Source of the DNA: a virus
Taxonomy: Duplodnaviria > Caudoviricetes
Virus record (IMG/VR): IMGVR_UViG_3300027752_000024
Coordinates: 1 to 54,150 of that record
Strand: one strand, 5' to 3'
DNA length: 54,150 bases
A program made the translations under genes and the position numbers. Below are positions 3,109 to 37,072 of the stretch, piece by piece. The notes under the pieces are model-generated. The model ran no database searches. It had not been told where the DNA came from and saw only the letters and a list, made by a program, of their open reading frames with translations. The first letter of the stretch is position 1, and every line of letters begins with the position of its first letter.

Positions 3109-3408
3109 TTACAATGCTGCTATTCTTGCTTTAAATGCAGCGAAATCTGCACTTGCTGCTACTTCAGTTTGCAATGTTGCAATACTAATATATCCTGGTA
3201 TAATGCCGTTTACAGCGTCTACAAGTAATGTACTATCATCTGCAAACACACTGCCTTTGATATCAGTGTTGACTTGTCCATCTGCTAATCCTGCAATGTC
3301 TGCATAAACTTCTGTAAAGTTTTCATTGATTTTTATCATAGCTGTGCGGAGGGGATCACCCCCTCCACTGTTTACTGCTGTGCCTACGTTAATAGTTTGC
3401 TTTGCCAT
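3109..3408 (-). CDS. Small structural protein with gp9/gp10-like N-terminus
   Basis: MAKQTINVGTAVNSGGGDPLRTAMIKINENFTEVY. Start overlaps the stop of the upstream gene (TAATG). Confidence 0.7.
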   Translation of the reverse strand: MAKQTINVGTAVNSGGGDPLRTAMIKINENFTEVYADIAGLADGQVNTDIKGSVFADDSTLLVDAVNGIIPGYISIATLQTEVAASADFAAFKARIAAL

Positions 3409-6400
3409 TATACTCTTCCTACTACTACTTCGACAACACCACGATCGTCGTTGTCTTTTGTTCCAACTGCCTTACCAATAACTTGGCCAACACCTGGTGT
3501 GTTATTAACAATGGCATAACCAGCAACAGCACTTGTAACAAGCATATCACCTTTGCGTACTTTGCCAATCACTTTGCATGGAACTCGTCCTTGCAATGCT
3601 ACACCCACAACGTGTTCGCCTTGTAATGCACTGTTCATCAAGTGTGCTGGATTGGTTGTTACAACACCAGCTGCTCTAGTATCACCTTTTGTAGTACACG
3701 CAGTAACTTCTTCATCACCGCCAAACACTAGTACTGTTCCTGGTGCATATGCTGCATCGCCTAAATAGTTTTCTGCAAGGTCAGCATATAGTGCAGCAGT
3801 TGCTTCACCATTGAATGTTGTAGCCCAAACGGTGTTGTATCTGTTGCCGGTTGCACCAATGCTTACACCGTTGTTTGCGCCGCTGTTTACAGGACCTATA
3901 ATGTTACCAGTGTGTGTAATACTACCAGTTATGTTGATACCAACTGTACCGGAAATAGTTCCGCTTGCAAATGTTAAGCCAGTTAATCCTGCTAAACTTG
4001 TTGACGTTGCTCCAAGTGCAACAGTTGTTGTACCAACTGTAACACTACTGTTTGCTAGTTCAGTGTTTGAAACACCACCTGCTTTAATACCAACCCATCC
4101 ATCTGTAATTTCAAAGTTAGCACTATCAAAACTTGCTAATCCGCTCAATGCTTGCTTTGCGGCAGCAGTTCCAGTTGGCGCACTTGCTGTAGCAGTTGCT
4201 AAATTCATCAGCAACTTGCTTTGTGCAATCGCAGCACTAGCATTAACATCGCCGTCAACAATAACACCACTACTAATACTTGCTGTGATAGTGTTACCAG
4301 ATGTGTAAGTAAGTCCAATGTCTCCGTCTACTGCAACGTTTACAGTTTCTTGAGCTGTACCTGTGAATGCCAATAGTTGACTTAATACTGTGCCACCTGT
4401 ACCAGTAATAGTTACATCACCAATATCATTTAACTCATCTGTTTTTTGATCTACGTATTGTTTTGTTACAGCATCGCTTGAAGCAGTTGGAGTACCCAAG
4501 TTAGTAACACGGTTACTACCCAAGTTCATATCACTGTTCATTATAGTGTCACTAAAGCCCGGCCCACCTAGTGACATAACACCTGGACCAATAGTTACTC
4601 CGCCAACAGCGCCATCTCTATCAAAGCCTAAACGTGCATCGATATAGCCTTCTGTTGCTGTTTGTGTTGGTACTGCATCGCCTTTAGCATCAGTAAACGT
4701 ATCGTCGTTGCTAAACTCGTTAACACGCACACCACGCTTAAATCCAATACCATCAATGTTTGTAAGAACAAGTGCAGCATTAAATGTAACGCTACCAGTA
4801 CCTTGGTCAACTGTAAAGAATCTACCTACACGGAAGAAACCGTCTTGGTCTGTCATAACAGTAAACACTCGACCTTTGCTACGCTCTTGTACTTGTGCTG
4901 CACTTGCATTACCTGTGCTGTCAATAGCATCGTTTGTACTAACTGGATCAAATCCGTATGGTGAACCGTAAATACGCTCTGGATAGTTACTGGTGTTAAA
5001 TCCACCTGTACCAATGTCAAGCATATCGTGTCCTGTTGCACGACATGTACTGATGTTTACAGTAATCTCTGCTGCCTCGCCGCTGGAAAGACCTAGCTTT
5101 AATGTAATGCCTGCACCGTTTAACAATGTCTTACCAAGACCTCCGTATGCACTACCACTCAGTGCTGGCCAGTTAACATCTGTGCCGGCAACATCTGAAA
5201 TCTGTAATACAGCAACATCTTTTGAGCCTGCGCCACCTGTGTATGCATATTCTGCATATGCATCAACTTGATGTGTTTTGCCGCCCCATGTAAAGATCAT
5301 ATCAGCATTTGCAATACGTGCTTGTTCTTGATCATCTAACTTGTTGATTATAATAAATCTACTACCGTCTGCACTATTTGTTGCAGCAGTGTTACCCATT
5401 GTGATAGTTCCACTTGGAGTAACTGCACCAACAATGTCTGTGTAGTTTGGATCTACAGTACTGTTAAGATTAAAGAAGTTTTCAGTTGCAGTAATCACAC
5501 TTTGTTCAACAGTTAAGTCTGTGTATCTAAAGTTACTATCAAATGTAACCATACGCTGATCTGTGCCTGTAGTAACACCATCTGTGATTTGATTGTTAAA
5601 CGAAATAGTACGATATACATATTCTGTAGTATCTTGTGTGAAGATAAACGCAGTACTTGGACGTACAGGTATCTCTTCAGCTGGGAAGTTGTCTAGCAAG
5701 AAGTTTTGCTTGTGACGTACTACAAGTTTTGTATCGTGATTGGTATTTTCTTGCAATCCATTTGATGCAGTTCCTTCTAATCCTGTACCAAAGTTGAATC
5801 TCCAAACTTTACCACTTAGTACCGGAGTACTAGAATCGTATCTTGGAGTACCTGCTACAGTTGCAGTACCAATAGTTCCGCTGTTAACATCTGTAATAGT
5901 TACTGTACAATCGTTTGCAGTAGTTGCACCACCTAACAATGTACCAGGAATAATAATTGTTTCACCAATTGTTGCGCCTGTGCCGCCACTGGTAATATTA
6001 ATGCCGTATCCGTTTGTTCTATCTTTGGTTATTTGTAAAACTGCATCGTCAGCAGTGTATGTGCCTGTAAGGCCTGCTGCACTACTTGTATCAATCTCAT
6101 ATGCACCTAGTGTAAAAGATGCATTACTTGTGTTTGTCATTTCATACGGTTGATACAATCCTGTAGCGTGTAAGATTTCAACTTCCGACACGTTGTTTGG
6201 ATATTCTTTTAAATCATATGCATACATAAACAATGCATTTACTGGTGCATCTAGATCTTTTGCTGTGACTGTTGCCGGAATACCAACATTAGTACTTGTA
6301 CCTGTTGTAATTCTACCTGTTGTATTAAATGTACCTGTTGTAGTATGCACATATATTCTAGTAGGATTGGCTGAGCCATTTTCTTCACCAGTGAAACTTA

Positions 6401-9400
6401 ATATACCTGTAGCATTTGCTGCTCTTGTTGCAACGCCGCCACTTGTGTATGCAGTGTCGCCGCTGGAGTCATAAGCAGTTGCAAGTCCTACATCTGTATA
6501 CAATGTAAAGGTATTAACGTCCTGTACATCTACATAGAACTGCAAATCATTTAGTTCTGTCATTCCGACAATGCCGGATATCGTAACTAGATCTGCATTT
6601 GTTAGATTGTGTCCAGTTGCAGTAACTGATGCTGGACTTGCTTGTGTAACAGCAGTAATAGTTGCATTAATCAAGCCTTGTATAAGTGTCTGTCCTACAG
6701 TGATAGCACCACTAGTTGGAACAGCAGCGGCAAAGTCTAAGTATCCATCTGCTCTAAATGTCTTGGCAGGGAATACCATGTCGGCTCCGAGTGTAACATC
6801 TGTAGCAACTTCATCAGGGTCAGCGCCTTCTGCAACTAGACCATAGATACCGTAACTGTTGTTACCGCCTAAACTTCTAATCTGTGATCCGTCTAGTGCA
6901 AGATAACCAGTATGGCAATAATATGTAAACATACTAACAAGTTCTGCTAATCCGTTGTTTACTGCAATAGCACCAAACCCTAAATCGTTGACTTGTGTAA
7001 AGTCGTTTGCAAGCATACTTCTGTTGCCGCCGCTTTGTGCGAAGATATCAATACCTGTACCTGCAAGCCAACCTTGTCCTTCGACAAATGTACGTGTAAT
7101 GCCACCGCCGGTGTACGAACTAAATGCTGAAGTATTATATCCAGCAGTTAATGCACTATCAGTGTACAGTTCAACTTGTTTTGGATCTGCTGTTGTTTTA
7201 ACATATAATGTTGCACTGTTAATCTGCACCATTCCGTTGACATTACTAATAGTAACTCTATCGCTGTTGGAGTAGTTGTGATTTTCAATAGTGGTCATTA
7301 CAGCAGTTGTTGCTTGTGAAATATCGTCAATAGTACGTGATGTACTATCACTAGGATTGCTAGTTTCGTTTAAAACAAGTGTTGCTGTACCTGCCGCTTT
7401 ATTATAGTCTGTGATTGTATTAACTTGATATCTTGACCCCTGGTGGAAGAACGGGAATGGTGTAGGAGGTCTACGTACAAACAATCCTTCTCCTGCCGGT
7501 GAACTAACATCTATACTAAATGCACTATTTACAGTATCAACTGTCATTGGCATGTTACCTGCATAACCATCAATAAGCAATCCACCTGCAAAGTTTCTGT
7601 TTGTGCCTTTTGACTGTGAGAAACTTGAACCTGTTTGGCAGTATGGCGAACGTGTTAGTATTTGACCTTCAGGATCAAGTACCATCATAAATCCGCCCTG
7701 TCTTTGAACAGTGATGTTTCTTACGATTGTAGCATCGTTACATAGGAACACATCCATTTCGCTGTTGTTTAGTGGTGGTCTATATGTTACATTAAATGCA
7801 AATGCAATACAGTTAACCAATGCTTGACCATTTGTTAGTGCAGCAGCTTCCGCTGTGTAATCAATATCAAATACTTGATCAACTGCACCTAGTTTTGCAA
7901 AAGGTGATCCAGAGTCATTAGCTAGTACACTTGTCATAAGTGTGCTTATATTTGTAATAGCTGCGGCAGTTTCTGTTTCTTGTCCTGCAACTGCTCCTGT
8001 ATAATATGCGCCTTGATTAGTAAGAGACTGCTCTCTACCGCCCACACGCAAATCATTTACAATACCGTCAATGATTAATCCAGTGTCTCTACGACACTTT
8101 GTTTCACTGTATGTCAACGATGGATATGTTGCATCAACATACTGTATTGTTTCTTCAATAAGGAATGCTTTATTAAGTTCAATAAGTCTAGCAGCTTGTG
8201 TAAACTTACCAGGGTTACTAATAGCATCTGTACCGACTACAATCTCATCCTCTGGAACGGCTGCATAGTGATAACCGTATTTTCCTTGCTTGCTACTAAT
8301 AGGATGCGTAAATGTATGTCCGCCGCCTGTGGTAGTAATATTAAATGTTAGGTTAGCGCCACCTCCTGCACCAAGTTTACTATCATTGATTATAATAGTT
8401 TCGCCTACAATAAACCCATCGCCTCCTGTGGTAATAGATACTGTTGCAGTGCCGCCGGAAGTTATAATAACTTGGAAAGTTGCATCCTGTCCTGCTCCAG
8501 AAGTACTATAGTCATCTGTACCAATCTGGTATGTGCCTAGTGTACGTGCCGCATCTGCTGCTGACACACTGCCAAATCCAGTAGCTGGAGAATACGCTGA
8601 TATCAAACTGTCTGTGATAACGTCTCTATAGAACCACGTCGATGCCCACTTACTTTGTGATACACCTGGCTTTGGACGAACAACACAACGTCTAAACTCG
8701 TCACCTTTGATACTTACGTTTTCAGGCAACTTAATAGGAAGATGCTCGTAGTAAATACCTGATTCAAGTCTTACAGTGATTTGGTTGTTGCGTGTTTTAT
8801 TACCAAACTCAAGTTCTTCGCCTGCAATAAACTCAATAGGTTCAACCAAGTCAACTGTAACTGCATCAGTTGTAACACTATTAGTTCTAGTATAGTTTGT
8901 AATAATACCTTTGGCACCTGACAGTTTGCCAACAATAACCTTACCTTCGATAAGATCCGGATTGCCTTCAATGCCTTGGTCTACTGCATCGTTTGTACCG
9001 TTTGTAAATGTAAATGTATAACCAGTACCTGTTGCAGCTAGTGCAACATCAGTGTCTTGTAAAATATCAATGATTTCATTGAATCGATTTGTGTAAGCAG
9101 TAATAACGCCTGCAGAAACAGTACCTGGAGTTGCAGTGTTTGCTTCAGCAAACGCATTAAGAACTCGTGCTTTAACTACTGCAACAGCAGCTTGTGTTTC
9201 AGCACCTTGCTCAACCTTTGCTTTAATAGCACTAGGACTTGCATTATATCTCTGTCCTGCCCAACGTGTTAAGTAGTTAACAGTAGTACCTGCTTGTACA
9301 TCTAAACGCACAGCATCAATCATAAGTTTTACATCACGTTGACACAACGTTTGATTATAAGTTAGATCAGGATAGGTAACTGCAAGATAATCAACTACAA

Positions 9401-10523
9401 ACTCTTGTATAGCATTAACATTAGCTACTGCTATATTACTAGCAGCAACAGCAGTAGAAGGAGGACTTGAATATCCAGCAATACCGTCAATGATACTGTT
9501 TACTTCTCCGTCGTTGTATGTTACAGTTTGTACATACGGCCCTGGTTCAAATGGTGTAGCTTCGATGATTTGTTCTGCTTTACGCATTGCAGCATTAATA
9601 GTTCTATAAGCATACTGCTGACTTCTACCTTCTTGTCCTGCTGGTGAAACAGTTTGGTTATCATCGCCTGTTGTAGTAACATAAATGTTGGTCGAACTTG
9701 CATAACCTTGTGTATCAACGTACAGTTTTGTAACAGCTTGTAAATCGTCTTTGCCATTTGGCTGTCCAAAGCCTTCGAGTGGACTCGGATGGTCGGCTAG
9801 ATAAAGTGTGTCCAGCATTGTACGATTTGCTTCAGTGCCGGCTCTAGTAATAACTTCCTGTGTTTGAGGAACTTGTGTACCTGTTGCACCTGATGGAACT
9901 GACAATGCACCTGTTAAAGTATCACCTGATACGTTTACATATGTGTCGTCGGCAAAGCCTTTACTAATAACAACATTGTCAGTTGAGATAGCTGCTGCAC
10001 CAGGGTGTGTTGCTGCCCAGTTAGCCACAAGTGTATCAATGTCATCCCCTGCGCCAGTATTTCTTAGTTTTGTATTAATACCGTTACTGTATCCAATCAC
10101 AGCTTCCATATTTAATGGAGCAGTTAAGTTTGGATCTGGATCTCTACTAATATGAGGATCGTTAATAATGATTTTAAGTGTGCCGCTTTGATCTGGCGTA
10201 GATGGATCAACATCGTCAAACTCTACGATAACACTATTATTATTTGTGTTTACTAAATCTCCAGCTGCATTACTGTTTGCATCACTAATAAACTTATAAA
10301 AGTTTAACCCAGTTTCTGTAGAGTTAACTGCTGGAATTGCACCAGTATTACCTAAATACGAATCAGGAGTATCGTCAATATTTTTAAATGATATTGCGCC
10401 GCCGAGACCAAATACAGCATATAGTTCAGTAAAGTTTGTATTTACTTTTTTGAAACTTTCTCTAATACTATCGCCGGTGCCGTCATTGCCCTCGATACCA
10501 ATATCAACGTCTTGTCTTGCCAT
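3408..10523 (-). CDS. Giant (2371 aa) tail fibre/baseplate protein. gp10-like N-terminus, internal repeats, C-terminal chaperone/autocleavage-like domain
   Basis: Starts MARQDVDIGIEGNDGTGDSIRESFKKVNTNFTELY. Contains duplicated internal modules. C-terminal ALYADLAENY...GVVTTNPAHLMN...VALQGRVPCKV...KGDMLVTS is typical of phage fibre C-terminal chaperone domains. Confidence 0.8.
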   Translation of the reverse strand: MARQDVDIGIEGNDGTGDSIRESFKKVNTNFTELYAVFGLGGAISFKNIDDTPDSYLGNTGAIPAVNSTETGLNFYKFISDANSNAAGDLVNTNNNSVIVEFDDVDPSTPDQSGTLKIIINDPHISRDPDPNLTAPLNMEAVIGYSNGINTKLRNTGAGDDIDTLVANWAATHPGAAAISTDNVVISKGFADDTYVNVSGDTLTGALSVPSGATGTQVPQTQEVITRAGTEANRTMLDTLYLADHPSPLEGFGQPNGKDDLQAVTKLYVDTQGYASSTNIYVTTTGDDNQTVSPAGQEGRSQQYAYRTINAAMRKAEQIIEATPFEPGPYVQTVTYNDGEVNSIIDGIAGYSSPPSTAVAASNIAVANVNAIQEFVVDYLAVTYPDLTYNQTLCQRDVKLMIDAVRLDVQAGTTVNYLTRWAGQRYNASPSAIKAKVEQGAETQAAVAVVKARVLNAFAEANTATPGTVSAGVITAYTNRFNEIIDILQDTDVALAATGTGYTFTFTNGTNDAVDQGIEGNPDLIEGKVIVGKLSGAKGIITNYTRTNSVTTDAVTVDLVEPIEFIAGEELEFGNKTRNNQITVRLESGIYYEHLPIKLPENVSIKGDEFRRCVVRPKPGVSQSKWASTWFYRDVITDSLISAYSPATGFGSVSAADAARTLGTYQIGTDDYSTSGAGQDATFQVIITSGGTATVSITTGGDGFIVGETIIINDSKLGAGGGANLTFNITTTGGGHTFTHPISSKQGKYGYHYAAVPEDEIVVGTDAISNPGKFTQAARLIELNKAFLIEETIQYVDATYPSLTYSETKCRRDTGLIIDGIVNDLRVGGREQSLTNQGAYYTGAVAGQETETAAAITNISTLMTSVLANDSGSPFAKLGAVDQVFDIDYTAEAAALTNGQALVNCIAFAFNVTYRPPLNNSEMDVFLCNDATIVRNITVQRQGGFMMVLDPEGQILTRSPYCQTGSSFSQSKGTNRNFAGGLLIDGYAGNMPMTVDTVNSAFSIDVSSPAGEGLFVRRPPTPFPFFHQGSRYQVNTITDYNKAAGTATLVLNETSNPSDSTSRTIDDISQATTAVMTTIENHNYSNSDRVTISNVNGMVQINSATLYVKTTADPKQVELYTDSALTAGYNTSAFSSYTGGGITRTFVEGQGWLAGTGIDIFAQSGGNRSMLANDFTQVNDLGFGAIAVNNGLAELVSMFTYYCHTGYLALDGSQIRSLGGNNSYGIYGLVAEGADPDEVATDVTLGADMVFPAKTFRADGYLDFAAAVPTSGAITVGQTLIQGLINATITAVTQASPASVTATGHNLTNADLVTISGIVGMTELNDLQFYVDVQDVNTFTLYTDVGLATAYDSSGDTAYTSGGVATRAANATGILSFTGEENGSANPTRIYVHTTTGTFNTTGRITTGTSTNVGIPATVTAKDLDAPVNALFMYAYDLKEYPNNVSEVEILHATGLYQPYEMTNTSNASFTLGAYEIDTSSAAGLTGTYTADDAVLQITKDRTNGYGINITSGGTGATIGETIIIPGTLLGGATTANDCTVTITDVNSGTIGTATVAGTPRYDSSTPVLSGKVWRFNFGTGLEGTASNGLQENTNHDTKLVVRHKQNFLLDNFPAEEIPVRPSTAFIFTQDTTEYVYRTISFNNQITDGVTTGTDQRMVTFDSNFRYTDLTVEQSVITATENFFNLNSTVDPNYTDIVGAVTPSGTITMGNTAATNSADGSRFIIINKLDDQEQARIANADMIFTWGGKTHQVDAYAEYAYTGGAGSKDVAVLQISDVAGTDVNWPALSGSAYGGLGKTLLNGAGITLKLGLSSGEAAEITVNISTCRATGHDMLDIGTGGFNTSNYPERIYGSPYGFDPVSTNDAIDSTGNASAAQVQERSKGRVFTVMTDQDGFFRVGRFFTVDQGTGSVTFNAALVLTNIDGIGFKRGVRVNEFSNDDTFTDAKGDAVPTQTATEGYIDARLGFDRDGAVGGVTIGPGVMSLGGPGFSDTIMNSDMNLGSNRVTNLGTPTASSDAVTKQYVDQKTDELNDIGDVTITGTGGTVLSQLLAFTGTAQETVNVAVDGDIGLTYTSGNTITASISSGVIVDGDVNASAAIAQSKLLMNLATATASAPTGTAAAKQALSGLASFDSANFEITDGWVGIKAGGVSNTELANSSVTVGTTTVALGATSTSLAGLTGLTFASGTISGTVGINITGSITHTGNIIGPVNSGANNGVSIGATGNRYNTVWATTFNGEATAALYADLAENYLGDAAYAPGTVLVFGGDEEVTACTTKGDTRAAGVVTTNPAHLMNSALQGEHVVGVALQGRVPCKVIGKVRKGDMLVTSAVAGYAIVNNTPGVGQVIGKAVGTKDNDDRGVVEVVVGRV

Positions 10524-12203: not shown

Positions 12204-13250
12204 TTATGCTGCCATTTCTGTAAACCCGCCAGTATTAATAATATGACGTTGTAATAGTTGTCTGCTTGCTAAGTTCTTACACTTTGCCTCTACCATAATA
12301 TCAGCCCACTGCCAGTGCGATAGTGCCCAGTCATTGACTGCGCCGTTCCACATATAGTCTGAGTGAGCTCTTAGTTTTTGTTTTTTGTATCCGTGCTCAA
12401 GAAGCTGTCCCATAGCTGGTCGAACTTCTGTGTTATAATCTTGGAGACAATCCTCCCTACTAACACTATAATGCATAGCAGGACGAACGCCACGCCAGCT
12501 ATCAATAACACGTTTGATTCTATCATCATTAGGTTCAATATATTCTCCTTCTCTGCACCAATGGTGATGTACATCTAGCACCAAAGCGAGATAGTCTGCA
12601 AGCTCGAGACTATCTCCAATTCCCCATTTGTTTTCGTCGTTTTCGATTGTAATAGTATTTCTTGCTTCTGGCGAGAGACGGGCAAGCGCACTCTTAATAC
12701 CGGCTGGACCTTGGCGCCCACTGATGTGGACATTACACTTGAAGTCTTGAAACTTGCGGCCGTAGCCCATCCACCTAATGAGGTTCGCATGATATTCAAA
12801 CTCCTCTATTGATCTTTCCACGATTTCCGGAGTGTCGGATGCGAGAACAACAAATTGTCCGGGATGCATCGAAAGTCGCACATCAAGGGCTCTTGCCGTG
12901 TCACCGACTGCACCATAGTGTTTTTCACAGTATGCCACAACGTCAGGACGGCTCCAAAAGTACCGCCAATCAGGATGGGTAGCACAAGGAAGCTGATTGC
13001 TACCCAGTCTGACCATCCGAAGTTCAGGAGTAAGACTTCCCACATATTCTACTAACCTCTTTGCTGCGGCAGCGTTATGTTCCATAATGTCCCAGAGCCG
13101 CTGTTCTGCTACATTACGTGTTTGTCTATTTAGCCACTGCACTGTTGTACTGCGTTCTGTAAGCGGCCGTTGTAGTTCTTCGAGTACTTTTTTCTTCTGT
13201 GTCTGATCTTCATGCAAATATTTACATGCAAATCCTATACGTTTGATCAT
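12204..13250 (-). CDS. uvsE: UV damage endonuclease (UvsE/UVDE)
   Basis: RIGFACKY, RLSMHPGQFVVLAS, IENDE, LDVHHHW, HYS, RAHSDY and DIMVEAKCK motifs. Confidence 0.92.
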   Translation of the reverse strand: MIKRIGFACKYLHEDQTQKKKVLEELQRPLTERSTTVQWLNRQTRNVAEQRLWDIMEHNAAAAKRLVEYVGSLTPELRMVRLGSNQLPCATHPDWRYFWSRPDVVAYCEKHYGAVGDTARALDVRLSMHPGQFVVLASDTPEIVERSIEEFEYHANLIRWMGYGRKFQDFKCNVHISGRQGPAGIKSALARLSPEARNTITIENDENKWGIGDSLELADYLALVLDVHHHWCREGEYIEPNDDRIKRVIDSWRGVRPAMHYSVSREDCLQDYNTEVRPAMGQLLEHGYKKQKLRAHSDYMWNGAVNDWALSHWQWADIMVEAKCKNLASRQLLQRHIINTGGFTEMAA

Positions 13251-13313: not shown

Positions 13314-13535
13314 TTAATGTTGAACACCATTGATGATATCGTCAAGTGCTTTAAGAGCTACTGTATAATGCAAGTTTTCACCCCACGTTTCACAATAGTC
13401 TTTGGCTGCTGCATCGGCAAGTTCTTTACTACTGTAAACGCCATGTAATCTACTGCGTTCTGGGTGACCTGTATTGTATGTGTGTACAATATAAATGTTA
13501 GTTGTTGTGTTCATCGCCAGTTCTCCTTTACCCAA
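13314..13535 (-). CDS. Hypothetical protein
   Basis: Short ORF packed between neighbours. The real start may be the second Met (MNTTT). Confidence 0.5.
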   Translation of the reverse strand: MGKGELAMNTTTNIYIVHTYNTGHPERSRLHGVYSSKELADAAAKDYCETWGENLHYTVALKALDDIINGVQH

Positions 13536-14329
13536 CTATCATTTGCATCTGCAGGATTTGGTTCGCCGTGAAACACTGCAATGCATGTATCTGGATGTAT
13601 TTTAGGTGGTGCATCTATTGTAAAGTTACGTTTACGTCTTTCATCAAGTTTGAGATCACGCCTATCACGCATTTCCCATTTGTAACTCATTATCCATTCG
13701 TCTGGCCAAAAAACATGATCGGTAATATGGTTAAACATCCAATCTTGGTCTCCACGTAACCGTTGTGTGTAAGTACGGGGATCTTTTTTAAACTGCTGCC
13801 ATAAGTTATCGTATTGTCCTATTTCTATACGAAACACACTGCTGTTCATTCTATTCCATGTATTGCGTTGACTTCTATTAAAATCTCTAATAATATTAAA
13901 CTTCTTAAGAGCACAACTAAACAGTTTGTCAATGTTTTTAAACACAATCACATCCAAGTCTAAAAATAATAATGTACCATTAATAGGCAAGTCTGCACCA
14001 ACAAACATTGGTTTATACCACCAACCGTCTGCTTGTACTTTTGGTAATGTATATGTTTTAATATTACTGTCTATACCTTTAGGATCTTCTGTAAAGCATA
14101 CAAACTCGTATGGTATAGTTATGTTGCGATTAACCATATTGTATAGTTTGTTTACATATTCAGCACTGTACTTGGTTCCCCATTTTAAACATACTACATA
14201 GTTTTTAGGAGATAATGGGGCTACATCTAGCAACCCCATTTCTTGGTCTAGTTGCGCTAGTTCAGTCAAGGCTTTCCCACGAGCCTTCCTTGCTTTGCGT
14301 TCTTCTTTGGGTTCAGTCCAGTTTTTCAT
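13511..14329 (-). CDS. GT-A fold glycosyltransferase-like protein
   Basis: VVCLKWGTKY..EYVNKL, GWWYKP, LFLDLDVIV (DxD), NSSV, GDQDW and VFHGEPNP motifs. Start moved to ATG 14329, overlapping the queD end. Confidence 0.75.
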   Translation of the reverse strand: MKNWTEPKEERKARKARGKALTELAQLDQEMGLLDVAPLSPKNYVVCLKWGTKYSAEYVNKLYNMVNRNITIPYEFVCFTEDPKGIDSNIKTYTLPKVQADGWWYKPMFVGADLPINGTLLFLDLDVIVFKNIDKLFSCALKKFNIIRDFNRSQRNTWNRMNSSVFRIEIGQYDNLWQQFKKDPRTYTQRLRGDQDWMFNHITDHVFWPDEWIMSYKWEMRDRRDLKLDERRKRNFTIDAPPKIHPDTCIAVFHGEPNPADANDSWVKENWR

Positions 14330-14798
14330 TAAATGACATTTTCTGTGTTGTGTAAGGTGTGTAGATTGCACTGTTAGCACCATGCTCTGCACACTCTGCA
14401 CTTTCACACCAGCAACGATTGTTAGTTGCTTCACGGATTAACTTATCAGCAAACTTCCAAGCATGATATGCAAACATTTCTGCACCAACGCCGTCCATTA
14501 CTCTAATCTCTGCAAGTCCCATTGCTTCAAGTTCTGAAAATTTATACAAGAACGGATCTTCTCTGTCAATAACAGTCTTGTGATCAAAACTATCTTCGAG
14601 CCATGCCTTCAAAGGTTTAAGTCCTCCAAAGTCTACTGCCCAGTTTTTGTTGTCTAGTTCACTGCATCCAAATGTAAATTTAAATGCCAAACTGTAGCCA
14701 TGTAGCAAATGACAATGTGAATGATCTGCATTAGGTTGACGGAACACTGCACTCAAGCCAATCTGGTGTCCGTATGTTTTAGTTGAATAAAAAGCCAT
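14313..14798 (-). CDS. queD: 6-carboxytetrahydropterin synthase (QueD/PTPS family)
   Basis: HSHCHLLHGYS (Cx3HG), VDFGGLK, FDHK, GAEMFA and EHGANSA motifs. Confidence 0.88.
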   Translation of the reverse strand: MAFYSTKTYGHQIGLSAVFRQPNADHSHCHLLHGYSLAFKFTFGCSELDNKNWAVDFGGLKPLKAWLEDSFDHKTVIDREDPFLYKFSELEAMGLAEIRVMDGVGAEMFAYHAWKFADKLIREATNNRCWCESAECAEHGANSAIYTPYTTQKMSFNEKLD

Positions 14799-14805
14799 TA
14801 GTTAT

Positions 14806-14863
14806 ACTCCTGTGTTAATGGAGTGTGCGGAATATTTAGAGTGGGTCGAACACTTAGTCCACT
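14806..14863 (-). promoter_or_regulatory. Candidate cis-regulatory RNA (pseudoknot plus SD-sequestering hairpin) in the queD 5' UTR
   Basis: P1 AGUGG/CCACU. Loop AGUGUUCG pairs with downstream CGCACACU (7 of 8 positions). An overlapping ACUCC can pair with the SD GGAGU. Confidence 0.5.
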
Positions 14864-14875
14864 GTATTACTACTT

Positions 14876-14903
14876 ATAATAATACAAGTTTTTATATTGT
14901 CAA
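14876..14903 (-). promoter_or_regulatory. Sigma70-like promoter for queD
   Basis: TTGACA-N16-TATTAT. Confidence 0.6.
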
Positions 14904-14908
14904 GTGGT

Positions 14909-15379
14909 TTATTTATTAAGAGGCAGTACTGTTAGTGGAATATTGTCGTAGGTTTGAGATTTTTCAGTTTGGAAGATTAAATAGTTACAAACAAAATCGC
15001 CTGTTATGCTAACACGATATTCACCACCTTCGCTCATAGCATCTGGACGAATCATTGTCCATTGATTAGGTATTTCTTTGCCCGGACGAGTATTACGCAC
15101 ATATTGTTTTTTAAATTTATCTAGCATATGCATATGTCCGTTATCTGAATATGCAACTCCGTATACTCGTGTGCTGTTGCATTCGTGCTTTTTAGACCCA
15201 ATCATTACAAAATCTATAGTATCGCCTTCTACTGGATTGTTTGATATTTCAATTTTAATATCCTGGAAGACAAACGCATTATCAAAACTCATATACGCAA
15301 TGCCTAACGATATAAGTGTTACTAAACTAATACCGCTAACAATGTTAGCCACTGCCTTTACTATCAAGGTCCTATTCAT
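14909..15379 (-). CDS. Hypothetical membrane-anchored protein
   Basis: N-terminal hydrophobic helix followed by a beta-rich domain with two Cys. Confidence 0.6.
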   Translation of the reverse strand: MNRTLIVKAVANIVSGISLVTLISLGIAYMSFDNAFVFQDIKIEISNNPVEGDTIDFVMIGSKKHECNSTRVYGVAYSDNGHMHMLDKFKKQYVRNTRPGKEIPNQWTMIRPDAMSEGGEYRVSITGDFVCNYLIFQTEKSQTYDNIPLTVLPLNK

Positions 15380-15695
15380 CCCGTAAATCCCTTACTTCCG
15401 TTGTTATTGATTTAAGTTCGTCTCTAACAGCACGTAATCCGTTTGTGGCGTTAGACATATTTTTAATAATATAACGAATAGTAAAAATGCTCCAAAACCA
15501 CCAAACTACACCTGTAAGTCCAAACATAATAAGACCTATATAAAATATGGCATCAAAATCAATAATATTAAAAACTATTAACAGAGTTGCCAGCGCCAAG
15601 AAGAACGGTGGAGTTATTTTTGCATATAAATCCCACCGTTCTGCTTGTTGTATAATTTTCTTAGTTTGTTCTAAGTTAAAAAAGTCATCTTCCAT
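15372..15695 (-). CDS. Hypothetical two-TM membrane protein
   Basis: Two hydrophobic segments and a C-terminal coiled coil. Start moved to MEDD (15695), 4 nt after TATAAATA at 15700-15707. Confidence 0.6.
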   Translation of the reverse strand: MEDDFFNLEQTKKIIQQAERWDLYAKITPPFFLALATLLIVFNIIDFDAIFYIGLIMFGLTGVVWWFWSIFTIRYIIKNMSNATNGLRAVRDELKSITTEVRDLRDE

Positions 15696-23473: not shown

Positions 23474-24811
23474 CTAGAAGTAGTCTTTGATCCACGGTAT
23501 ATAATCGTGAATATCAATCTTTCTAAACTTGTCACTGGCATTAGTATTGTCTATAAAGTGTTGCCAGTGTGTTTCGTTTTGTGGTTGATTGAGAACATTT
23601 TTTAAGTTAATAATATTATCAACTGCCCATTGTTCCCAGTCTCGTAAATCTGCATTTTTAAACTTCAAGTGTTGTTCTTCAAGCATTGTATTCATTAATG
23701 CTTTACGGTCGTCTGGTAGATTACATATGTGCAAGTGTTGTGGATGATCTACAATATTAAAATGTGGCAAACAATTCTGATATCCGTGTACACCCCAATC
23801 CCATTCGTAGTTCCAACTAGTATACTGGTCTTGACACCATTGTAAAATATTAGGTAAATCGTGTAGATTCATCAAACTAAGTGTAACATGCGTGTGTACT
23901 TTAACACCAGTACGAGTTTTACTAAACTCAGCGAGCTTAAACATATTTTTTTCAATAACACGCCATTTGGTAGGAAATCTAACATAATGTGCAAGGTCGC
24001 CAATTGCGTCAATACTTAAACTAAGTACAACACCTTTAAACTTATCCCAAATCTTTAACAGCCTGTCTGGTATAGTAGTAGCATTTGTGTTGTAGTGCAG
24101 TTCTATATGTTTGCTCCAACCCTGATCAATGATGTGTTCTAACCAAGCGTAGTGTTCTTCAACAACCAGCGGCTCTCCACCAATAAAGTTAATAACTCTT
24201 ACATTTGGCAATACTTCATCAAAGAACCCTTCTTCAAATGCTTTAATAAACCAAGGCTTATCACTGCTCATTTTAGCAATCATATATGCTGTTTCGTCCC
24301 AATCAGTATGAGGTACTGTTGGGCCTTCTTCAATCCATCTATGACTTGCCCATGGGTTACAACTGCGGCATTTTAAGTTACAAATATTTCCTAAGCTGAT
24401 ATCTAAATATGTAACAGCTTGTGGATCTAAGCGTCCGTCATCATCAACATGCTTTAAAGTTGTATCAGTGTGATCTTCGTATATCTCATTCCATGTTTGT
24501 CTGAAACTACGGATGCCTTGATCCTCTAATTCAAAACAACCTTTACAACCTTTGGGTATTTCATTGTTGAGTAGTTTTTTACGTATTTCCATAGCTGTTG
24601 GATCATTTATAAAATCACCAATGTCAGGACTATTCCAGTTGTTGTGTTCTTTCCAATAAGGAACAGAATCTACATCAACTCCTGGCATGTAACTGTTAGT
24701 TTCAATACGACTAAAACAACAAGGACGAGTGCGTCCATGTGAATGTGTGCTGTAACCTTGCATACTAAGGTAACAAAAGTTTTTTGGCAGGTTATCTGAT
24801 TTTGTTTGCAT
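23474..24811 (-). CDS. Radical SAM protein with N-terminal twitch/SPASM-like domain
   Basis: N-terminal C..PCC..CKGC, then CNLKCRSC (CxxxCxxC), GGEP, YNTN and SIDA. Start moved to MQTK. Confidence 0.9.
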   Translation of the reverse strand: MQTKSDNLPKNFCYLSMQGYSTHSHGRTRPCCFSRIETNSYMPGVDVDSVPYWKEHNNWNSPDIGDFINDPTAMEIRKKLLNNEIPKGCKGCFELEDQGIRSFRQTWNEIYEDHTDTTLKHVDDDGRLDPQAVTYLDISLGNICNLKCRSCNPWASHRWIEEGPTVPHTDWDETAYMIAKMSSDKPWFIKAFEEGFFDEVLPNVRVINFIGGEPLVVEEHYAWLEHIIDQGWSKHIELHYNTNATTIPDRLLKIWDKFKGVVLSLSIDAIGDLAHYVRFPTKWRVIEKNMFKLAEFSKTRTGVKVHTHVTLSLMNLHDLPNILQWCQDQYTSWNYEWDWGVHGYQNCLPHFNIVDHPQHLHICNLPDDRKALMNTMLEEQHLKFKNADLRDWEQWAVDNIINLKNVLNQPQNETHWQHFIDNTNASDKFRKIDIHDYIPWIKDYF

Positions 24812-25784
24812 ATTCTGGCCTTGCTTTGCTGATATTAAAGTCTGCTGCACAATGACAATGTGTCTTAGGACACCAAACACCTTCGCTCATTGTAGTATTA
24901 AACTCGCCTTGTACAATATTGCCCAACAGTGGGCCAACGCCACAACTGGCTTGTTGAATACGTCCATTAGGATGAATGTGTAAACTTTCGTGTATATTGC
25001 ACAACCAGCCCTTAAAGAAGTTCTTACCGTTTGTAATGATACCGTTTGTATCAATAGCTTCTATGGTGTCATCTTCATACTGTACTTTTGCCCAAGCATA
25101 ACTTGGATCTTTTTTAATAGGAATACTCTGTTGCTGCACTGTACTATTTGTTTTAAAGAAATCCATTTTCCATTGTTCTTCATAATGATACGGATCTGTG
25201 CTAGGACGTAGCTCGTCATAAACCGGTGCATACTCAATCATATAGTTGTCGCACTCATTTTTTATTCTGTCGCCAAATGCCATGCACTGTTCAAAATGAT
25301 CGTGATGCATCATAATACGACTACACAAATAGTTTTTCTTATCTTGCAAGAACTTGTAAACATCCATGTACTTGTCGTCTTTGCTCCATTCTGCGTGATA
25401 GCTGGCAACAACATCTTCAAACAAGTGATGATGATCCTTCCACCAGCTTAGTGGCTTACTAAAGTTGGTGTTGATACCTACACAACTGCCAGGCCATTCT
25501 GCATGTTCTCTAAACTTTTCTACAACAGGAATAAGTCCTTTCCAAAATGTAGGTTCGCCGCCGCTGAGGTACAGTTTAAAATATTTGTAGCCTTTGGCCT
25601 TGTAATGAAGCATGATACGTTCTAATGTGTTAACAATAGTATCTATGTCAGTGTCGTTTTTGTTACGGCCTGCCCAGTTCCATTCACTACAATATGTACA
25701 GCGAAAGTTACACCAATCATTTACTTGCCACACAATACTGACCCATTTGTCCTTTGCTGGCAGGATTGCTTTTATATCTTGCAT
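24792..25784 (-). CDS. Radical SAM protein with C-terminal Cys-rich (SPASM-like) domain
   Basis: CNFRCTYC, SGGEP, INTN. C-terminal GWLC..SC..CPKTHCHCAAD. Confidence 0.9.
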   Translation of the reverse strand: MQDIKAILPAKDKWVSIVWQVNDWCNFRCTYCSEWNWAGRNKNDTDIDTIVNTLERIMLHYKAKGYKYFKLYLSGGEPTFWKGLIPVVEKFREHAEWPGSCVGINTNFSKPLSWWKDHHHLFEDVVASYHAEWSKDDKYMDVYKFLQDKKNYLCSRIMMHHDHFEQCMAFGDRIKNECDNYMIEYAPVYDELRPSTDPYHYEEQWKMDFFKTNSTVQQQSIPIKKDPSYAWAKVQYEDDTIEAIDTNGIITNGKNFFKGWLCNIHESLHIHPNGRIQQASCGVGPLLGNIVQGEFNTTMSEGVWCPKTHCHCAADFNISKARPEYANKIR

Positions 25785-26980
25785 TCGTTTTCCAATATGT
25801 AATCTAATGTTGGGAATATATCACCAAACTTGTATTTGCGATATCTATCGTTAATACTAATAAACTGCTTCATCCGTGTTATGTTCTCTTCAGAATATTT
25901 ATTAGTATTCTGTGTGTAGTTAATGATTCGCGAAACTGCATCGTTGTGTAGTTTGCTGTTTATTATTTTTAAGTTGTCTATTACTTTGTGTCGTATTTCT
26001 TTGGGCCATACACAACTATGAATTTGGTCAGGGTGTTCTAAGAATATAGGTACAAAGTCTATACGCCGTGTTTGTGTGTCTTCTAGCCAACGTATCAGTG
26101 GAGCAACATCAAATACATTCCATGCCTGGTATACAAAGTAAATCTTTAGTTGTACTTTTTCAGGTAGACGCTGTGCTTTTGCAAAGTTTTCTTCTACTTT
26201 TTTCCAATCAGTTGGATAACGTATGTATTGGTTGTGTTCGCCAAATCCGTCAATGCTCATCTGTATTTCACTTGCATCAAAGAAGTCTAGTTTATCGTAA
26301 AACCCTTCTGGCCATGTTGTCATATTAGTGGTCCATGCAACATAGCATTTGTTGTTGCCAGCGGAAACAAGGGCGTCAAGCACGTACTGATTGGCTTGTA
26401 TTAAGGTTGGTTCACCCCCAGTTAGGTAAAGACGCTCTAACGTAGGTGCTACGCAGTCTACGAAGTCTTTAAACTCTTGAGTCTCGTACCATGCCCAATC
26501 GTGTTCCTCTACACTTTTAATCTCGTGTTGCCACTGATCATTTAGCCATTTAGGAACAGTTTCATTTGCAAGGATTTTCTTACGTTCTTTGTAGATATTA
26601 TCACTGCTCACACTCCAGCAACTATTGCATTTTAAGTTACAATGATTGCCCAATCGTAGTTCTAAGTGTGTAGGGTTGCCGTGAGTTACAGATGCATGAT
26701 AGGTTTTGTTGGCCCACTGCCTGCTGCTTTCTAAACCTTTTTCTTCGTGTTCGTAGCAGCGATTACATTCTTTAACTTTGCCACCACCCAGCATCTTTGC
26801 ACGAACATCCAGCATGTATTGCCCGTTCCAAATGTTCCACCAGTCAGTTTTACCTAGTACAGCATCTTTGCCATCTACTTGAATATAGTCTTCACTGTAT
26901 ACATGACAGCATAGTTTACATCTACCATCGGTGTTGGTGTGTACGTTTATAAACGGGTATACGCAATACGAATCACTCAT
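25772..26980 (-). CDS. Radical SAM protein with N-terminal twitch/SPASM-like domain
   Basis: CVYPF..LCC..CNRC, CNLKCNSC, TGGEP, TTN, SIDG. Start moved to MSDSY. Confidence 0.9.
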   Translation of the reverse strand: MSDSYCVYPFINVHTNTDGRCKLCCHVYSEDYIQVDGKDAVLGKTDWWNIWNGQYMLDVRAKMLGGGKVKECNRCYEHEEKGLESSRQWANKTYHASVTHGNPTHLELRLGNHCNLKCNSCWSVSSDNIYKERKKILANETVPKWLNDQWQHEIKSVEEHDWAWYETQEFKDFVDCVAPTLERLYLTGGEPTLIQANQYVLDALVSAGNNKCYVAWTTNMTTWPEGFYDKLDFFDASEIQMSIDGFGEHNQYIRYPTDWKKVEENFAKAQRLPEKVQLKIYFVYQAWNVFDVAPLIRWLEDTQTRRIDFVPIFLEHPDQIHSCVWPKEIRHKVIDNLKIINSKLHNDAVSRIINYTQNTNKYSEENITRMKQFISINDRYRKYKFGDIFPTLDYILENECKI

Positions 26981-29132: not shown

Positions 29133-30340
29133 TACCAGATTCCGTCTAGTTCAGGAAACACATCCAGTAAACTTTCTTGCCGCAATCTATCGATACGCTG
29201 TGTTTTAAACTTAAACATTTTTATTTCATCTGTGCGATCTTTTTCCATAAAGTTTAAAATACTCTCGTAATCGCTAATAACTGATTTAATATTGTCAAAC
29301 TGTTTTAAGTAAGAAATGTGTTCTGCATATCTTTTTGCTACTTGAGATTTAATCCACGGCGGCAATATACTCAATCTCATGTAAGAAGGATCCAATAAAA
29401 TGTTGATGCGAATGTTCTGCGGTTCTAGTAATCCTTCTTCTATCCATTCTTTGTGGAAATCAGGTAGGTTAAGCACGTTGTACACGCTTACAGTAGGCGT
29501 TAGCTCAAAATATACGTGTGGACACTGCTCAATCATATCTCTACGGTTTTGCACCACCTGTGACCATACCATGTTCTTACGCAAGTATTCACCGCGAGCA
29601 TGATTTGCATCCAAGCTACCGGCCACTCTTACGTGTTCAAACTTGTTCCAGTATTCAAATGCTGTTTTGTTTTTGTAATACATTTGTGTAAAGTTAGTGG
29701 TGTAATCCATTTTAACATCGTGCTTGCCCATGGCAATCCACTTGTCAAGTATACGATAGTGCTCTTGTGTAATCAACGGTTCGCCACCTGCCCAGTATAC
29801 TCTTTCAACACTGTCCAGCAATGGCTCAAGTTCGTCCATAAAGTTTAACATATCGTCACGCACTTTTAGTATCTTGCCATGCGGCAGTTCACCGTATATT
29901 GCTTTATGATCTTCAAACCAGCTACTACTAAACTGTGGCCCGCAACTACGACACTTTAAGTTACAAAGGTTACTAAAGCGTATGTCCATGTATGCCATGT
30001 TTACATCACCAGCACTGCCGTCGTCGCTTGTGCTTTCAACTTTGTCCCAATGATGCATATAGTTTTCTATACTGCTGTTACGCAGTGTACTCATACCGTT
30101 GTCTTCTAGTTCATAGCAACGTCTACATTCTTTGCTGGGCGTGTCTTCCAACATGTTAAGACGCAACTGCCGCATTTCTGGGCCGTTCCAAATGTCTTGC
30201 AATGTTTGATCTTGTGTATTTCCTACAGGATGATCTGGATCACTCATGCAGCAAGGATATGTAGTTCCAGCAGGCCACAAATGCATGTGCGTCCACGGCA
30301 TCATGCAAAAATGCTTGCTTTGTTTTAAATCGTTAGACAT
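29132..30340 (-). CDS. Radical SAM protein with N-terminal twitch/SPASM-like domain
   Basis: CMMPW..PCC..CRRC, CNLKCRSC, AGGEP, YTTN. Confidence 0.9.
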   Translation of the reverse strand: MSNDLKQSKHFCMMPWTHMHLWPAGTTYPCCMSDPDHPVGNTQDQTLQDIWNGPEMRQLRLNMLEDTPSKECRRCYELEDNGMSTLRNSSIENYMHHWDKVESTSDDGSAGDVNMAYMDIRFSNLCNLKCRSCGPQFSSSWFEDHKAIYGELPHGKILKVRDDMLNFMDELEPLLDSVERVYWAGGEPLITQEHYRILDKWIAMGKHDVKMDYTTNFTQMYYKNKTAFEYWNKFEHVRVAGSLDANHARGEYLRKNMVWSQVVQNRRDMIEQCPHVYFELTPTVSVYNVLNLPDFHKEWIEEGLLEPQNIRINILLDPSYMRLSILPPWIKSQVAKRYAEHISYLKQFDNIKSVISDYESILNFMEKDRTDEIKMFKFKTQRIDRLRQESLLDVFPELDGIW

Positions 30341-35669: not shown

Positions 35670-35896
35670 GACTTTTTGATTGTCCTATGCATACCTTCTG
35701 GCGAATGAATAGCATTGATAAGATCGTTAAACATATCTGTTGATATTTCAAGTATACTGTGTATTTCAAGTTCGTTGTCGTACTGACGTATATAAACAAC
35801 ATCATCAAACGCATCAATAATTAAATCGTCGTATAGACCAGTTTCGTCCATTACAGTAATAGTTGTTAAGTCGTGATCAAACTCATTTGTAAACAT
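35666..35896 (-). CDS. Hypothetical acidic protein
   Basis: 76-aa ORF overlapping both neighbours. Confidence 0.55.
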   Translation of the reverse strand: MFTNEFDHDLTTITVMDETGLYDDLIIDAFDDVVYIRQYDNELEIHSILEISTDMFNDLINAIHSPEGMHRTIKKS

Positions 35897-36881: not shown

Positions 36882-36903
36882 AAAAATACTTATCAACTTG
36901 ATT

Positions 36904-36991: not shown

Positions 36992-36996
36992 TAGTT

Positions 36997-37070: not shown

Positions 37071-37072
37071 AC

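What the first reader, a model, noticed from the sequence alone, without database searches (positions are those of the whole stretch)
14799..14870. Riboswitch-like pseudoknot in the phage queD leader
Seen: between a TTGACA/TATTAT promoter and the queD ATG the transcript reads AGUGG-ACUA-AGUGUUCG-AC-CCACU-CUAAAUAUUC-CGCACACUCC-AUUAACACA-GGAGU-AUAACUA-AUG. P1 (AGUGG/CCACU) and loop-tail pairing (AGUGUUCG/CGCACACU, 7 of 8) form an H-type pseudoknot. Its 3' strand overlaps an anti-SD (ACUCC) that can otherwise pair with the SD GGAGU. Known: preQ1-I riboswitches are small H-type pseudoknots with a 5-bp P1 upstream of que genes, but they usually switch expression off. Inference: here pseudoknot formation would free the SD, giving an ON switch, possibly a variant or new class sensing a guanine or pterin derivative.
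Basis: partly seen in the sequence, partly recalled or inferred. Interest (0 to 1): 0.75.

Follow-up and report, generated by a model that had tools for sequence, protein, structure and literature searches.

The report
Conserved pseudoknot before phage QueD-like gene
The leader of a QueD-like pterin-enzyme gene in a widespread group of uncultured marine giant phages folds into a small, evolutionarily conserved RNA pseudoknot that looks like a new kind of riboswitch whose ligand is still unknown.

Summary
It lies on the minus strand, 14863-14822, between a sigma-70-like promoter and the SD/ATG of a PTPS-family (QueD-like) gene.

Both helices of the H-type pseudoknot are real. On 82 distinct homologous leaders from IMG/VR contigs, 87.7% of cells pair (69.9% when shuffled, 0 of 500 shuffles reach it). 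The covariation score is 0.433, against 0.207 or less for slid registers. Four pairs switch between two to four pair types with no unpaired cell. G-U pairs place the RNA on the gene's strand.

Loop nucleotides are invariant, including a C directly 5' of the P1 3' strand. P2 always carries an irregularity, and some variants have a hairpin inserted there.

The motif sits only in front of this gene: 115 of 119 pattern hits, the other 4 being chance. 66 of 80 protein-fetched loci have it. It was not found in bacterial genomes or in cultured-phage QueD loci. No Rfam 15 family matches, preQ1-I included, and no paper found describes it.

Best reading: a new riboswitch-like class (about 0.55). The ON-switch logic (anti-SD overlapping P2) fits the window's variant but not every variant. 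The ligand is untested.

The parts
14876..14903 (-). sigma-70-like promoter: -35 TTGACA 14903-14898, 16-nt spacer, -10 TATTAT 14881-14876; predicted start about 14870-14867
   Evidence: 11 of 12. In 83 of 104 homologous leaders a -10 (at least 5/6) ends 2-15 nt before P1, and 81 of these have a -35.
14859..14863 (-). P1 5' strand AGUGG
   Evidence: Pair 5-28 is AU 57/UA 21/GU 4 with none unpaired; pair 4-29 is GC 70/AU 5/UA 1.
14855..14858 (-). L1 ACUA. ACU is at least 90% conserved; a variable-length stretch follows in relatives.
14847..14854 (-). P2 5' strand: P2b AGUGU (14854-50), invariant internal-loop U (14849), P2a CG (14848-47)
   Evidence: Pairs 17-46 (AU31/UA26/GU13/GC12), 18-45 (CG50/GC32) and 22-41 (GC72/AU10) have none unpaired.
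14845..14846 (-). L2 AC. The C directly 5' of the P1 3' strand is invariant.
   Evidence: invariant column C21. Still C in the L2 variants UC, CC and UUC.
14840..14844 (-). P1 3' strand CCACU
14830..14839 (-). L3 CUAAAUAUUC, an A-rich loop with invariant A, U and C
   Evidence: A29, T35, C36 invariant; A30, A31, A33 at least 90%
14822..14829 (-). P2 3' strand: P2a CG (14829-28), internal-loop C (14827), P2b ACACU (14826-22)
14820..14824 (-). Anti-SD ACUCC, sharing 3 nt with the P2b 3' strand
   Evidence: the MFE pairs it with GGAGU; control
14806..14810 (-). Shine-Dalgarno GGAGU, 7 nt before the ATG
14313..14798 (-). QueD-like PTPS-family gene, 161 aa: the regulated gene
13511..14329 (-). Glycosyltransferase-like gene. 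Its start is uncertain; the candidate ATG at 14329 overlaps the end of the QueD-like gene, so it may be co-expressed.
   Evidence: phrog_1962, 1.7e-24. Hit by tblastn in 148 of the 199 loci then held; downstream in the eight whose coordinates I looked at.

Best explanation
An RNA of about 42-49 nt at the very 5' end of the QueD-like early mRNA folds into an H-type pseudoknot. It has a P1 of 4-5 bp, an L1 beginning ACU, and a P2 of 5-8 bp. P2 is always interrupted by a mismatch or bulge at an invariant U. L2 is 2-3 nt and ends in an invariant C next to P1. L3 is A-rich.

Most likely this is the aptamer of a riboswitch class that has not been described. It would bind a small molecule at the P1/P2 junction. 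A ligand with a guanine-like face, pairing with the invariant L2 cytosine, is the best guess: a pterin or 7-deazapurine pathway intermediate, or a guanine nucleotide.

In the window's variant, docking of the 3' tail into P2 uses ACU of the anti-SD ACUCC. Ligand-stabilised pseudoknot formation would then free GGAGU and switch translation of the QueD-like gene ON, and perhaps that of the overlapping glycosyltransferase-like gene.

Shown: the structure, its conservation, its position and its exclusive gene association. Inferred: ligand binding, the identity of the ligand, and the direction of the switch.
For: Covariation:
- Both helices covary, measured against shuffled and slid controls.
- RNAalifold independently finds P2.
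- Further variants swap whole strands. P2b is GUGU/ACAC in the window and ACAC/GUGU in L290. Others are ACG/CGU, UCG/CGA, GGCG/CGCC, AGG/CCU and GGG/CCC.
- G-U pairs (for example 13 at pair 17-46) work only on this strand.

Conserved unpaired nucleotides:
- Loop nucleotides are invariant while stems vary.
- P2 always has an irregularity. In L082, L125, L142 and L170 a small hairpin is inserted exactly there.

Position and association:
- The motif lies directly after predicted promoters and 13-24 nt before the ATG.
- 115 of 119 pattern hits in viral contigs precede this gene; the other 4 are GC-rich chance hits.
- The covariance model finds one hit per locus and nothing else in 728 kb.
- The gene context differs between lineages, yet the motif stays with the gene.

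Switch:
- SD accessibility rises from 0.19 to 0.77 when the pseudoknot nucleotides are locked away.
- In variants A, F and the hairpin-insert type the SD is sequestered far more than with shuffled aptamers (0.02 vs 0.31-0.40).

Resemblance:
- Topology, the 5-bp P1 and the A-rich 3' tail resemble preQ1-I as described in PMC10639078 (passages read).
- That preQ1-I reads its ligand with a cytosine at the equivalent L2 position is recalled, not taken from a call.
Against: - No ligand-binding or expression data exist.
- Anti-SD sequestration is only modestly above a dinucleotide-shuffle control overall (0.19 vs 0.29). It is absent in variant C (0.76 vs 0.41) and in part of variant B (0.33 vs 0.26, 0.67 vs 0.26).
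- With a single gene association the ligand cannot be narrowed by context.
- The enzyme's product is unknown. It scores below the QueD equivalog cut-off. The stretch that is HGH in the solved CPH4 synthase 7v0f reads HGY here.
- T4-type phages are known to use a leader pseudoknot as a protein operator (gene 32; PMC3014915, passages read).
- 14 of 80 relatives do without the element.
Confidence: 0.55

Rival explanations
1. The element is a protein-binding translational operator. The pseudoknot would be recognised by a phage protein, or by the QueD-like enzyme itself, which represses or activates translation. Gene 32 protein does this at the pseudoknot in its own leader in T4-type phages.
For: - This is a T4-like phage. 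It has split type II topoisomerase genes next door, with the best cultured match a Vibrio myophage at 40.7%, and sigma-70-type early promoters.
- The gene 32 leader pseudoknot is an established precedent (PMC3014915).
- Conserved loops and covarying stems fit a protein site as well as a ligand pocket.
- Strict one-gene association is typical of autoregulation.
Against: - No RNA-binding role is known for PTPS/T-fold enzymes (recalled knowledge).
- The gene is a metabolic enzyme, not a nucleic-acid-binding protein.
- The compact junction with an invariant unpaired C beside P1 and an A-rich L3 mirrors small-molecule pseudoknot aptamers (the role of the C is partly recall).
- A RegB homologue was looked for and not found, but without a positive control.
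Confidence: 0.2
2. The element is a ligand-independent structure. A stable 5'-terminal pseudoknot would protect the early mRNA from 5'-end-dependent decay, or tune ribosome loading constitutively.
For: - The motif begins within a few nucleotides of the predicted transcription start.
- Variant C has a strong GC-rich P2 and no anti-SD. That looks constitutive.
- 14 of 80 relatives simply lack it.
Against: - A plain hairpin would suffice for 5' protection.
- Invariant unpaired nucleotides, a conserved helix irregularity and a tolerated insertion at one defined site point to a specific binding pocket.
- Anti-SD overlap with the P2 3' strand recurs at different positions in variants A, B (part), D, E, F and the insert type.
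Confidence: 0.15
3. The element is a very divergent member of the preQ1-I family. It would bind preQ1 or preQ0 and repress the gene, as other preQ1 riboswitches do.
For: - It has the same order of elements: a 5-bp P1, an A-rich L3, and an invariant C 5' of the P1 3' strand.
- The downstream gene belongs to the QueD-like phage family. In cultured phages that family sits in 7-deazaguanine clusters with QueC, QueE, FolE and TGT.
Against: - The Rfam PreQ1 model gives no match at the leader at E up to 10. Its only two weak window hits lie elsewhere, and the one I checked (10058-10097) is inside an ORF. cmscan of 301 nt and 57 nt around the leader also finds nothing.
- P2 is 5-8 bp with an internal loop, not about 4 bp.
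- The SD is not part of P2.
- Related large contigs lack QueC and TGT by Pfam.
- The platform of the window's variant reads as ON, not OFF.
Confidence: 0.1

Closest known systems
preQ1-I riboswitch (Rfam RF00522)
   Same: Small H-type pseudoknot with a P1 of 5 bp and an A-rich 3' tail that docks to form P2. It lies in the 5' leader of a gene of the GTP-to-7-deazaguanine pathway family (PMC10639078, passages read). A C sits immediately 5' of the P1 3' strand; that this is the ligand-pairing base in preQ1-I is recalled.
   Different: There is no covariance-model match. P2 is 5-8 bp with an obligatory mismatch or bulge, against about 4 bp. L1 begins ACU and varies in length. The SD lies downstream of P2 instead of inside it. 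The predicted logic in the window is ON rather than OFF. The element is found only in uncultured marine phages.
SAM-II / SAM-V riboswitches (Rfam RF00521, RF01826)
   Same: H-type pseudoknots with a second helix divided by an irregularity. SAM-V is known from marine bacteria and metagenomes. These features are recalled knowledge.
   Different: No Rfam match. The gene association is different. In those classes the SD lies in the pseudoknot and the switch is OFF (recalled).
Gene 32 leader pseudoknot of T4-type phages
   Same: A pseudoknot at the 5' end of a leader in a T4-like phage that controls translation initiation downstream (PMC3014915, passages read).
   Different: That element is a nucleation site for the single-strand-binding protein on its own mRNA. 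Here the gene is a metabolic enzyme, and the loops carry invariant nucleotides typical of a binding pocket.
Glutamine riboswitches carried by marine myophages
   Same: A precedent that marine T4-like phages carry riboswitches (PMC9004378, passages read).
   Different: Those are copies of a bacterial class (glnA motif). The present motif was not found in 185,579 species-representative bacterial and archaeal genomes with the pattern used.

Membership tests
preQ1-I riboswitch (RF00522) | Match to the Rfam covariance model at or near the gathering score (39 bits) | tested here: not met
   the only window matches at E up to 10 are 10058-10097(-) at 16.8 bits, which lies inside a 2371-aa ORF, and 12365-12388(-) at 9.1 bits, which lies within the coordinates of ORF 12204-13250(-). 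None is at 14799-14870. Searches also find nothing.
preQ1-I riboswitch (RF00522) | H-type pseudoknot with a 5-bp P1 and an A-rich L3 | tested here: met
   Features as given in PMC10639078.
preQ1-I riboswitch (RF00522) | Short P2 (about 4 bp) whose 3' strand overlaps the SD or competes with an antiterminator | tested here: not met
   P2 is 5-8 bp with an internal loop. The P2 3' end lies 13-24 nt before the ATG, and the SD is outside P2.
preQ1-I riboswitch (RF00522) | Binds preQ1 | not testable with these tools
   Needs in-line probing or ITC.
Any Rfam 15 family (4227 models, including preQ1-II/III, SAM-II/V, THF, THF-II, guanidine-III, fluoride, NAD-II) | Covariance-model match | tested here: not met
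   (gathering threshold: only 11 tRNAs elsewhere). (E up to 10: only a 16-bit snoRNA and an 11-bit miRNA chance match).
Riboswitch (generic) | Conserved structured aptamer with covariation, in cis in a 5' UTR | tested here: met
Riboswitch (generic) | Expression platform with a structure mutually exclusive with the aptamer | tested here: inconclusive
   Clear in the window's variant A (0.02 vs 0.31), in F and in the insert type. Absent in variant C. Overall 0.19 vs 0.29 for shuffled aptamers.
Riboswitch (generic) | Direct, selective binding of a small molecule | not testable with these tools
T4 gene 32-type autoregulatory pseudoknot | Lies in the leader of the ssDNA-binding protein gene and is bound by that protein | tested here: not met
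   The downstream gene is PTPS/QueD-like. Protein binding is not testable.
QueD (6-carboxytetrahydropterin synthase) for the regulated gene | NCBIfam equivalog score; pathway partners QueE, QueC and TGT/DpdA | tested here: not met
   TIGR03367 scores 33.7 bits against a cut-off of 89.25. QueC is found in 0 of 5 and TGT in 0 of 5 records, including one judged 86% complete. No radical SAM ORF reaches a QueE cut-off (best 40.4 vs 260.1). The PHROG 'QueD-like' family is met, and cultured-phage homologues at 45-53% identity sit in 7-deazaguanine clusters.

The most novel reading that the evidence does not exclude
This is the first riboswitch class known only from viruses. It is a pseudoknot aptamer carried by an abundant group of marine jumbo T4-like phages. 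It would sense a metabolite with a guanine-like face, namely a pterin or 7-deazapurine intermediate or a guanine nucleotide, through its invariant junction cytosine. It would switch ON translation of a divergent QueD-like enzyme early in infection. That would tie a phage auxiliary pathway to the host's metabolic state without any protein regulator.
Probability: 0.35. Interest if true: 0.88.

Novelty: new variant of a known kind. Interest (0 to 1): 0.78.

Why it matters
New riboswitch classes are rare, and each has pointed to an unrecognised piece of metabolism or signalling. This candidate is unusually well supported by covariation for so small an RNA.

It is common in the ocean. The regulated protein family has 5317 clusters at 90% identity, and near-identical DNA occurs in marine runs from several studies.

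With the searches made here it appears to be phage-only. The phage riboswitches I read about in the papers fetched are copies of a bacterial class.

Its ligand would show what the FolE plus QueD-like module does in these phages, which seem to lack the rest of the 7-deazaguanine pathway. The short pseudoknot would also be a convenient model and a possible sensor part.

Tried and rejected
- **Known Rfam family.** Rejected. The weak PreQ1-model hit at 10058-10097 lies inside a giant ORF.
- **Second copy or other gene association.** None in the window plus 99 loci. None before FolE, which is held in L012 and L015. The model was not run on L101-L200 or L215-L294.
- **Cellular homologues.** The genome contigs pattern scan gave 11 hits, none with both a fully paired P1 and P2b complementarity. 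All but one lie in DNA of 0.46-0.75 G+C, or on partly masked sequence. They score 24 bits or less as partial matches, against 27.7-66.7 for true members. The pattern covers only variants A, B, F and the insert type.
- **Cultured phages with QueD-like genes** (Synechococcus phage BUCT-ZZ01, Achromobacter phage Motura, Pseudanabaena phage Pan1). There is no leader room or no model hit. Only 3 of 124 records were examined.
- **RegB-type cleavage control of the GGAG SD.** No RegB homologue in 5 records, but the search had no positive control.
- **Transcript ends from public RNA libraries.** Only assembled contigs were available. They cover the coding region in 4 runs of 2 studies, and one contig spans 14766-14887. 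This gives no information on start, strand or level, and DNA carry-over is not excluded.
- **Nested MFE of the single sequence.** Not significant, as expected for a pseudoknot.
- **Literature.** Searches found no description of the motif. Supplements could not be seen, and subscription journals are not covered.

Full report
**What is there.** The finding lies on the minus strand. An ORF at 14313-14798(-) encodes a 161-aa protein of the PTPS family (Pfam PF01242, 1.2e-12; PHROG 'QueD-like 6-pyruvoyl-tetrahydropterin synthase', 1.3e-39).

The 110-nt intergenic space upstream holds a near-consensus sigma-70-type promoter: TTGACA 14903-14898, a 16-nt spacer, TATTAT 14881-14876 (11 of 12).

| Element | Sequence | Coordinates |
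|---|---|---|
| P1 | AGUGG / CCACU | 14863-59 / 14844-40 |
| Loop-tail helix | AGUGUUCG / CGCACACU | 14854-47 / 14829-22 |
| Anti-SD | ACUCC | 14824-20 |
| SD | GGAGU | 14810-06 |
| Start codon | ATG | 14798 |

On its own the sequence does not fold better than shuffles (z = -0.31). The case therefore rests on comparison with relatives.

**Relatives.**
- The protein has 484 confirmed relatives in IMG/VR contigs, of which the best 80 were fetched.
- It has 5317 clusters at 90% identity in the large protein collection. These come mostly from marine sources, on contigs up to 351 kb.
- The phage is an uncultured marine T4-like virus. Its medium topoisomerase subunit is at most 40.7% identical to any cultured phage. 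Related contigs reach 228-300 kb at 65-86% estimated completeness.
- The upstream regions of the 80 loci showed at once that the element is conserved with compensating changes.
115 of them have the QueD-like ORF directly downstream. The other 4 are chance matches in GC-rich DNA.
- Of the 80 loci fetched by protein, and so unbiased with respect to the motif, 66 carry the element. The other 14 have the promoter directly before the SD.

**Structure.** I parsed 104 distinct leaders by sequence anchors only, without using complementarity. I aligned 83 aptamers (82 distinct). Exact duplicates were dropped, as were four insertion-bearing sequences (L082, L125, L142, L170).

For the pseudoknot written on that alignment:

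| Measure | Observed | Shuffled | Slid by 1-3 columns |
|---|---|---|---|
| Cells paired | 87.7% | 69.9% (0/500 reach it) | not quoted |
| Covariation score | 0.433 | 0.146 (0/500 reach it) | 0.207 or less |

Individual pairs are striking, and none of these has an unpaired cell:

| Pair | Pair types |
|---|---|
| 17-46 | AU 31 / UA 26 / GU 13 / GC 12 |
| 18-45 | CG 50 / GC 32 |
| 22-41 | GC 72 / AU 10 |
| 5-28 (P1) | AU 57 / UA 21 / GU 4 |

The outermost pairs (3-30 and 15-48) are often unpaired, so P1 is 4-5 bp and P2b 3-5 bp. Four type D/E sequences are out of register by one column in the MAFFT alignment and count as broken, which makes the figures conservative. RNAalifold on its own returns the P2 core. 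G-U pairs fit only the gene's strand.

A second protein-based sampling added more variants. One has P2b ACAC/GUGU, the strand-swapped form of the window's GUGU/ACAC. It also added further P1 versions.

Outside the helices the following are invariant or nearly so:
- ACU at the start of L1;
- the U that interrupts P2;
- the C that ends L2, directly 5' of the P1 3' strand;
- A, U and C positions of the A-rich L3.

P2 always carries an irregularity at the invariant U: a U.C mismatch, a one-nucleotide bulge, or a 2x1 or 2x2 loop. In four leaders a small hairpin is inserted exactly opposite it.

**Position and exclusivity.**
- In 83 of 104 leaders a -10 hexamer (at least 5/6) ends 2-15 nt before P1, and 81 of these have a -35. 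The motif is therefore the 5' end of the mRNA.
- A covariance model built from the alignment finds one hit per locus, always before the QueD-like gene. Scores are 27.7-66.7 bits, and there is nothing else up to E = 5 in 728 kb. The window's hit is 62.4 bits at 14820-14865(-).
- The motif is not before the phage FolE gene. FolE lies about 2 kb upstream in some lineages.
- A pattern scan of 185,579 species-representative bacterial and archaeal genomes gave 11 hits. None combines a fully paired P1 with P2b complementarity, and all are weak partial model matches.
- Three cultured phages with homologous QueD-like genes have no such leader.

**What it is not.** No Rfam 15 family reaches its gathering score here. 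Permissive scans of 301 nt and 57 nt return only two chance hits. The PreQ1 model run over the whole window scores nothing at the leader. Six literature searches and two papers on riboswitches in marine myophages gave no description of it.

**How it probably works.** The architecture is that of a small-molecule pseudoknot aptamer. It matches preQ1-I in the order of elements, the P1 length and the A-rich docking tail. By my recollection of preQ1-I structures, it also matches in having a junction cytosine at the place where the ligand pairs. I therefore favour a riboswitch whose ligand presents a guanine-like face.

For the direction of switching I computed SD accessibility in 104 leaders. It is 0.19 in the free ensemble and 0.77 when the pseudoknot nucleotides are withheld. 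A dinucleotide-shuffle control of the aptamer gives 0.29, so the overall effect is modest.

By variant it is uneven:

| Variant | SD unpaired | With shuffled aptamer |
|---|---|---|
| A (the window's) | 0.02 | 0.31 |
| F | 0.02 | 0.33 |
| Hairpin-insert type | 0.02 | 0.40 |
| Largest B subgroup (P2b ..UACG, 17 leaders) | 0.33 | 0.26 |
| C | 0.76 | 0.41 |

The B subgroups range from 0.07 vs 0.25 to 0.67 vs 0.26.

The anti-SD sits 3' of P2 in variants A, D, E, F and the insert type. It sits at the L3/P2a border in B. A movable platform of this kind fits riboswitches but is not proof. For the window, then: pseudoknot formed means anti-SD occupied, SD free, translation ON. This is inferred, not shown.

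**The regulated gene.**
- It is QueD-like, yet it scores well below the QueD equivalog cut-off.
- The stretch that is HGH in the solved CPH4 synthase 7v0f reads HGY here. HGY is conserved across the 120 closest family members.
- Four large related contigs encode FolE but no QueC, TGT, HPPK or DHPS by Pfam.
- None of the many radical SAM ORFs reaches a QueE cut-off.
- Homologues at 45-53% identity in cultured phages do sit in 7-deazaguanine clusters.
- The pathway in this phage group is therefore open, and with it the ligand.
- A glycosyltransferase-like gene follows and may overlap the QueD-like stop. tblastn finds it in 148 of the 199 loci then held, and it lies downstream in the eight whose coordinates I looked at.

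**Rivals.** Three remain open: a protein operator of the gene 32 type, a constitutive 5' structure, and a very divergent preQ1-I. None explains the invariant junction nucleotides, the conserved helix defect and the recurrent anti-SD overlap as economically. Only experiments can decide.

**Verdict.** The element is best filed as a new riboswitch-like class found only in marine phages, with ligand and polarity unknown.

Noticed in passing
window 23474-31544(-) and 35883-36896(-): There is a dense run of radical SAM genes. It holds four paralogues of the N-terminal twitch-domain radical SAM family (NF033640, 295-404 bits), a 719-aa B12-binding radical SAM protein, and two shorter ones with only weak likeness to QueE, viperin or NrdG. 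Related contigs carry 6-9 radical SAM matches each. This is unusual for a phage, and its function is unknown.
   Followed up: partly
window 36907-39275(-): An array of 11 tRNA genes.
   Followed up: no
window 3408-10523(-): A single ORF of 2371 aa. A weak Rfam PreQ1 match (16.8 bits) at 10058-10097 lies inside it and is a chance hit.
   Followed up: partly
window 14313-14798(-): The QueD-like family reads HGY where the solved CPH4 synthase 7v0f has HGH. This and 'GLSAVFRQ' are conserved in the 120 closest relatives, which suggests altered metal binding or chemistry.
   Followed up: partly
window 13511-14329(-): A glycosyltransferase-like gene (phrog_1962) has a candidate ATG that overlaps the last codons of the QueD-like gene. 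tblastn finds it in 148 of the 199 loci then held, and UvdE in 128.
   Followed up: partly
L082, L125, L142, L170 (aptamer region): These motif variants carry a small extra hairpin inserted in the P2 3' strand at the internal-loop position, plus a longer L1. This turns the pseudoknot into a three-way arrangement.
   Followed up: partly
L012 1-6474: In another lineage the same motif and gene sit in a different neighbourhood: FolE, unknown, HIT-domain protein, unknown, [motif] QueD-like, ClpP protease, unknown, methyltransferase, phosphoribosyltransferase.
   Followed up: no
window 13500-15400: Near-identical DNA occurs in marine, brine and ice metagenome runs from several studies. Contigs from four RNA libraries (two studies) cover the QueD-like coding region.
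   Followed up: partly
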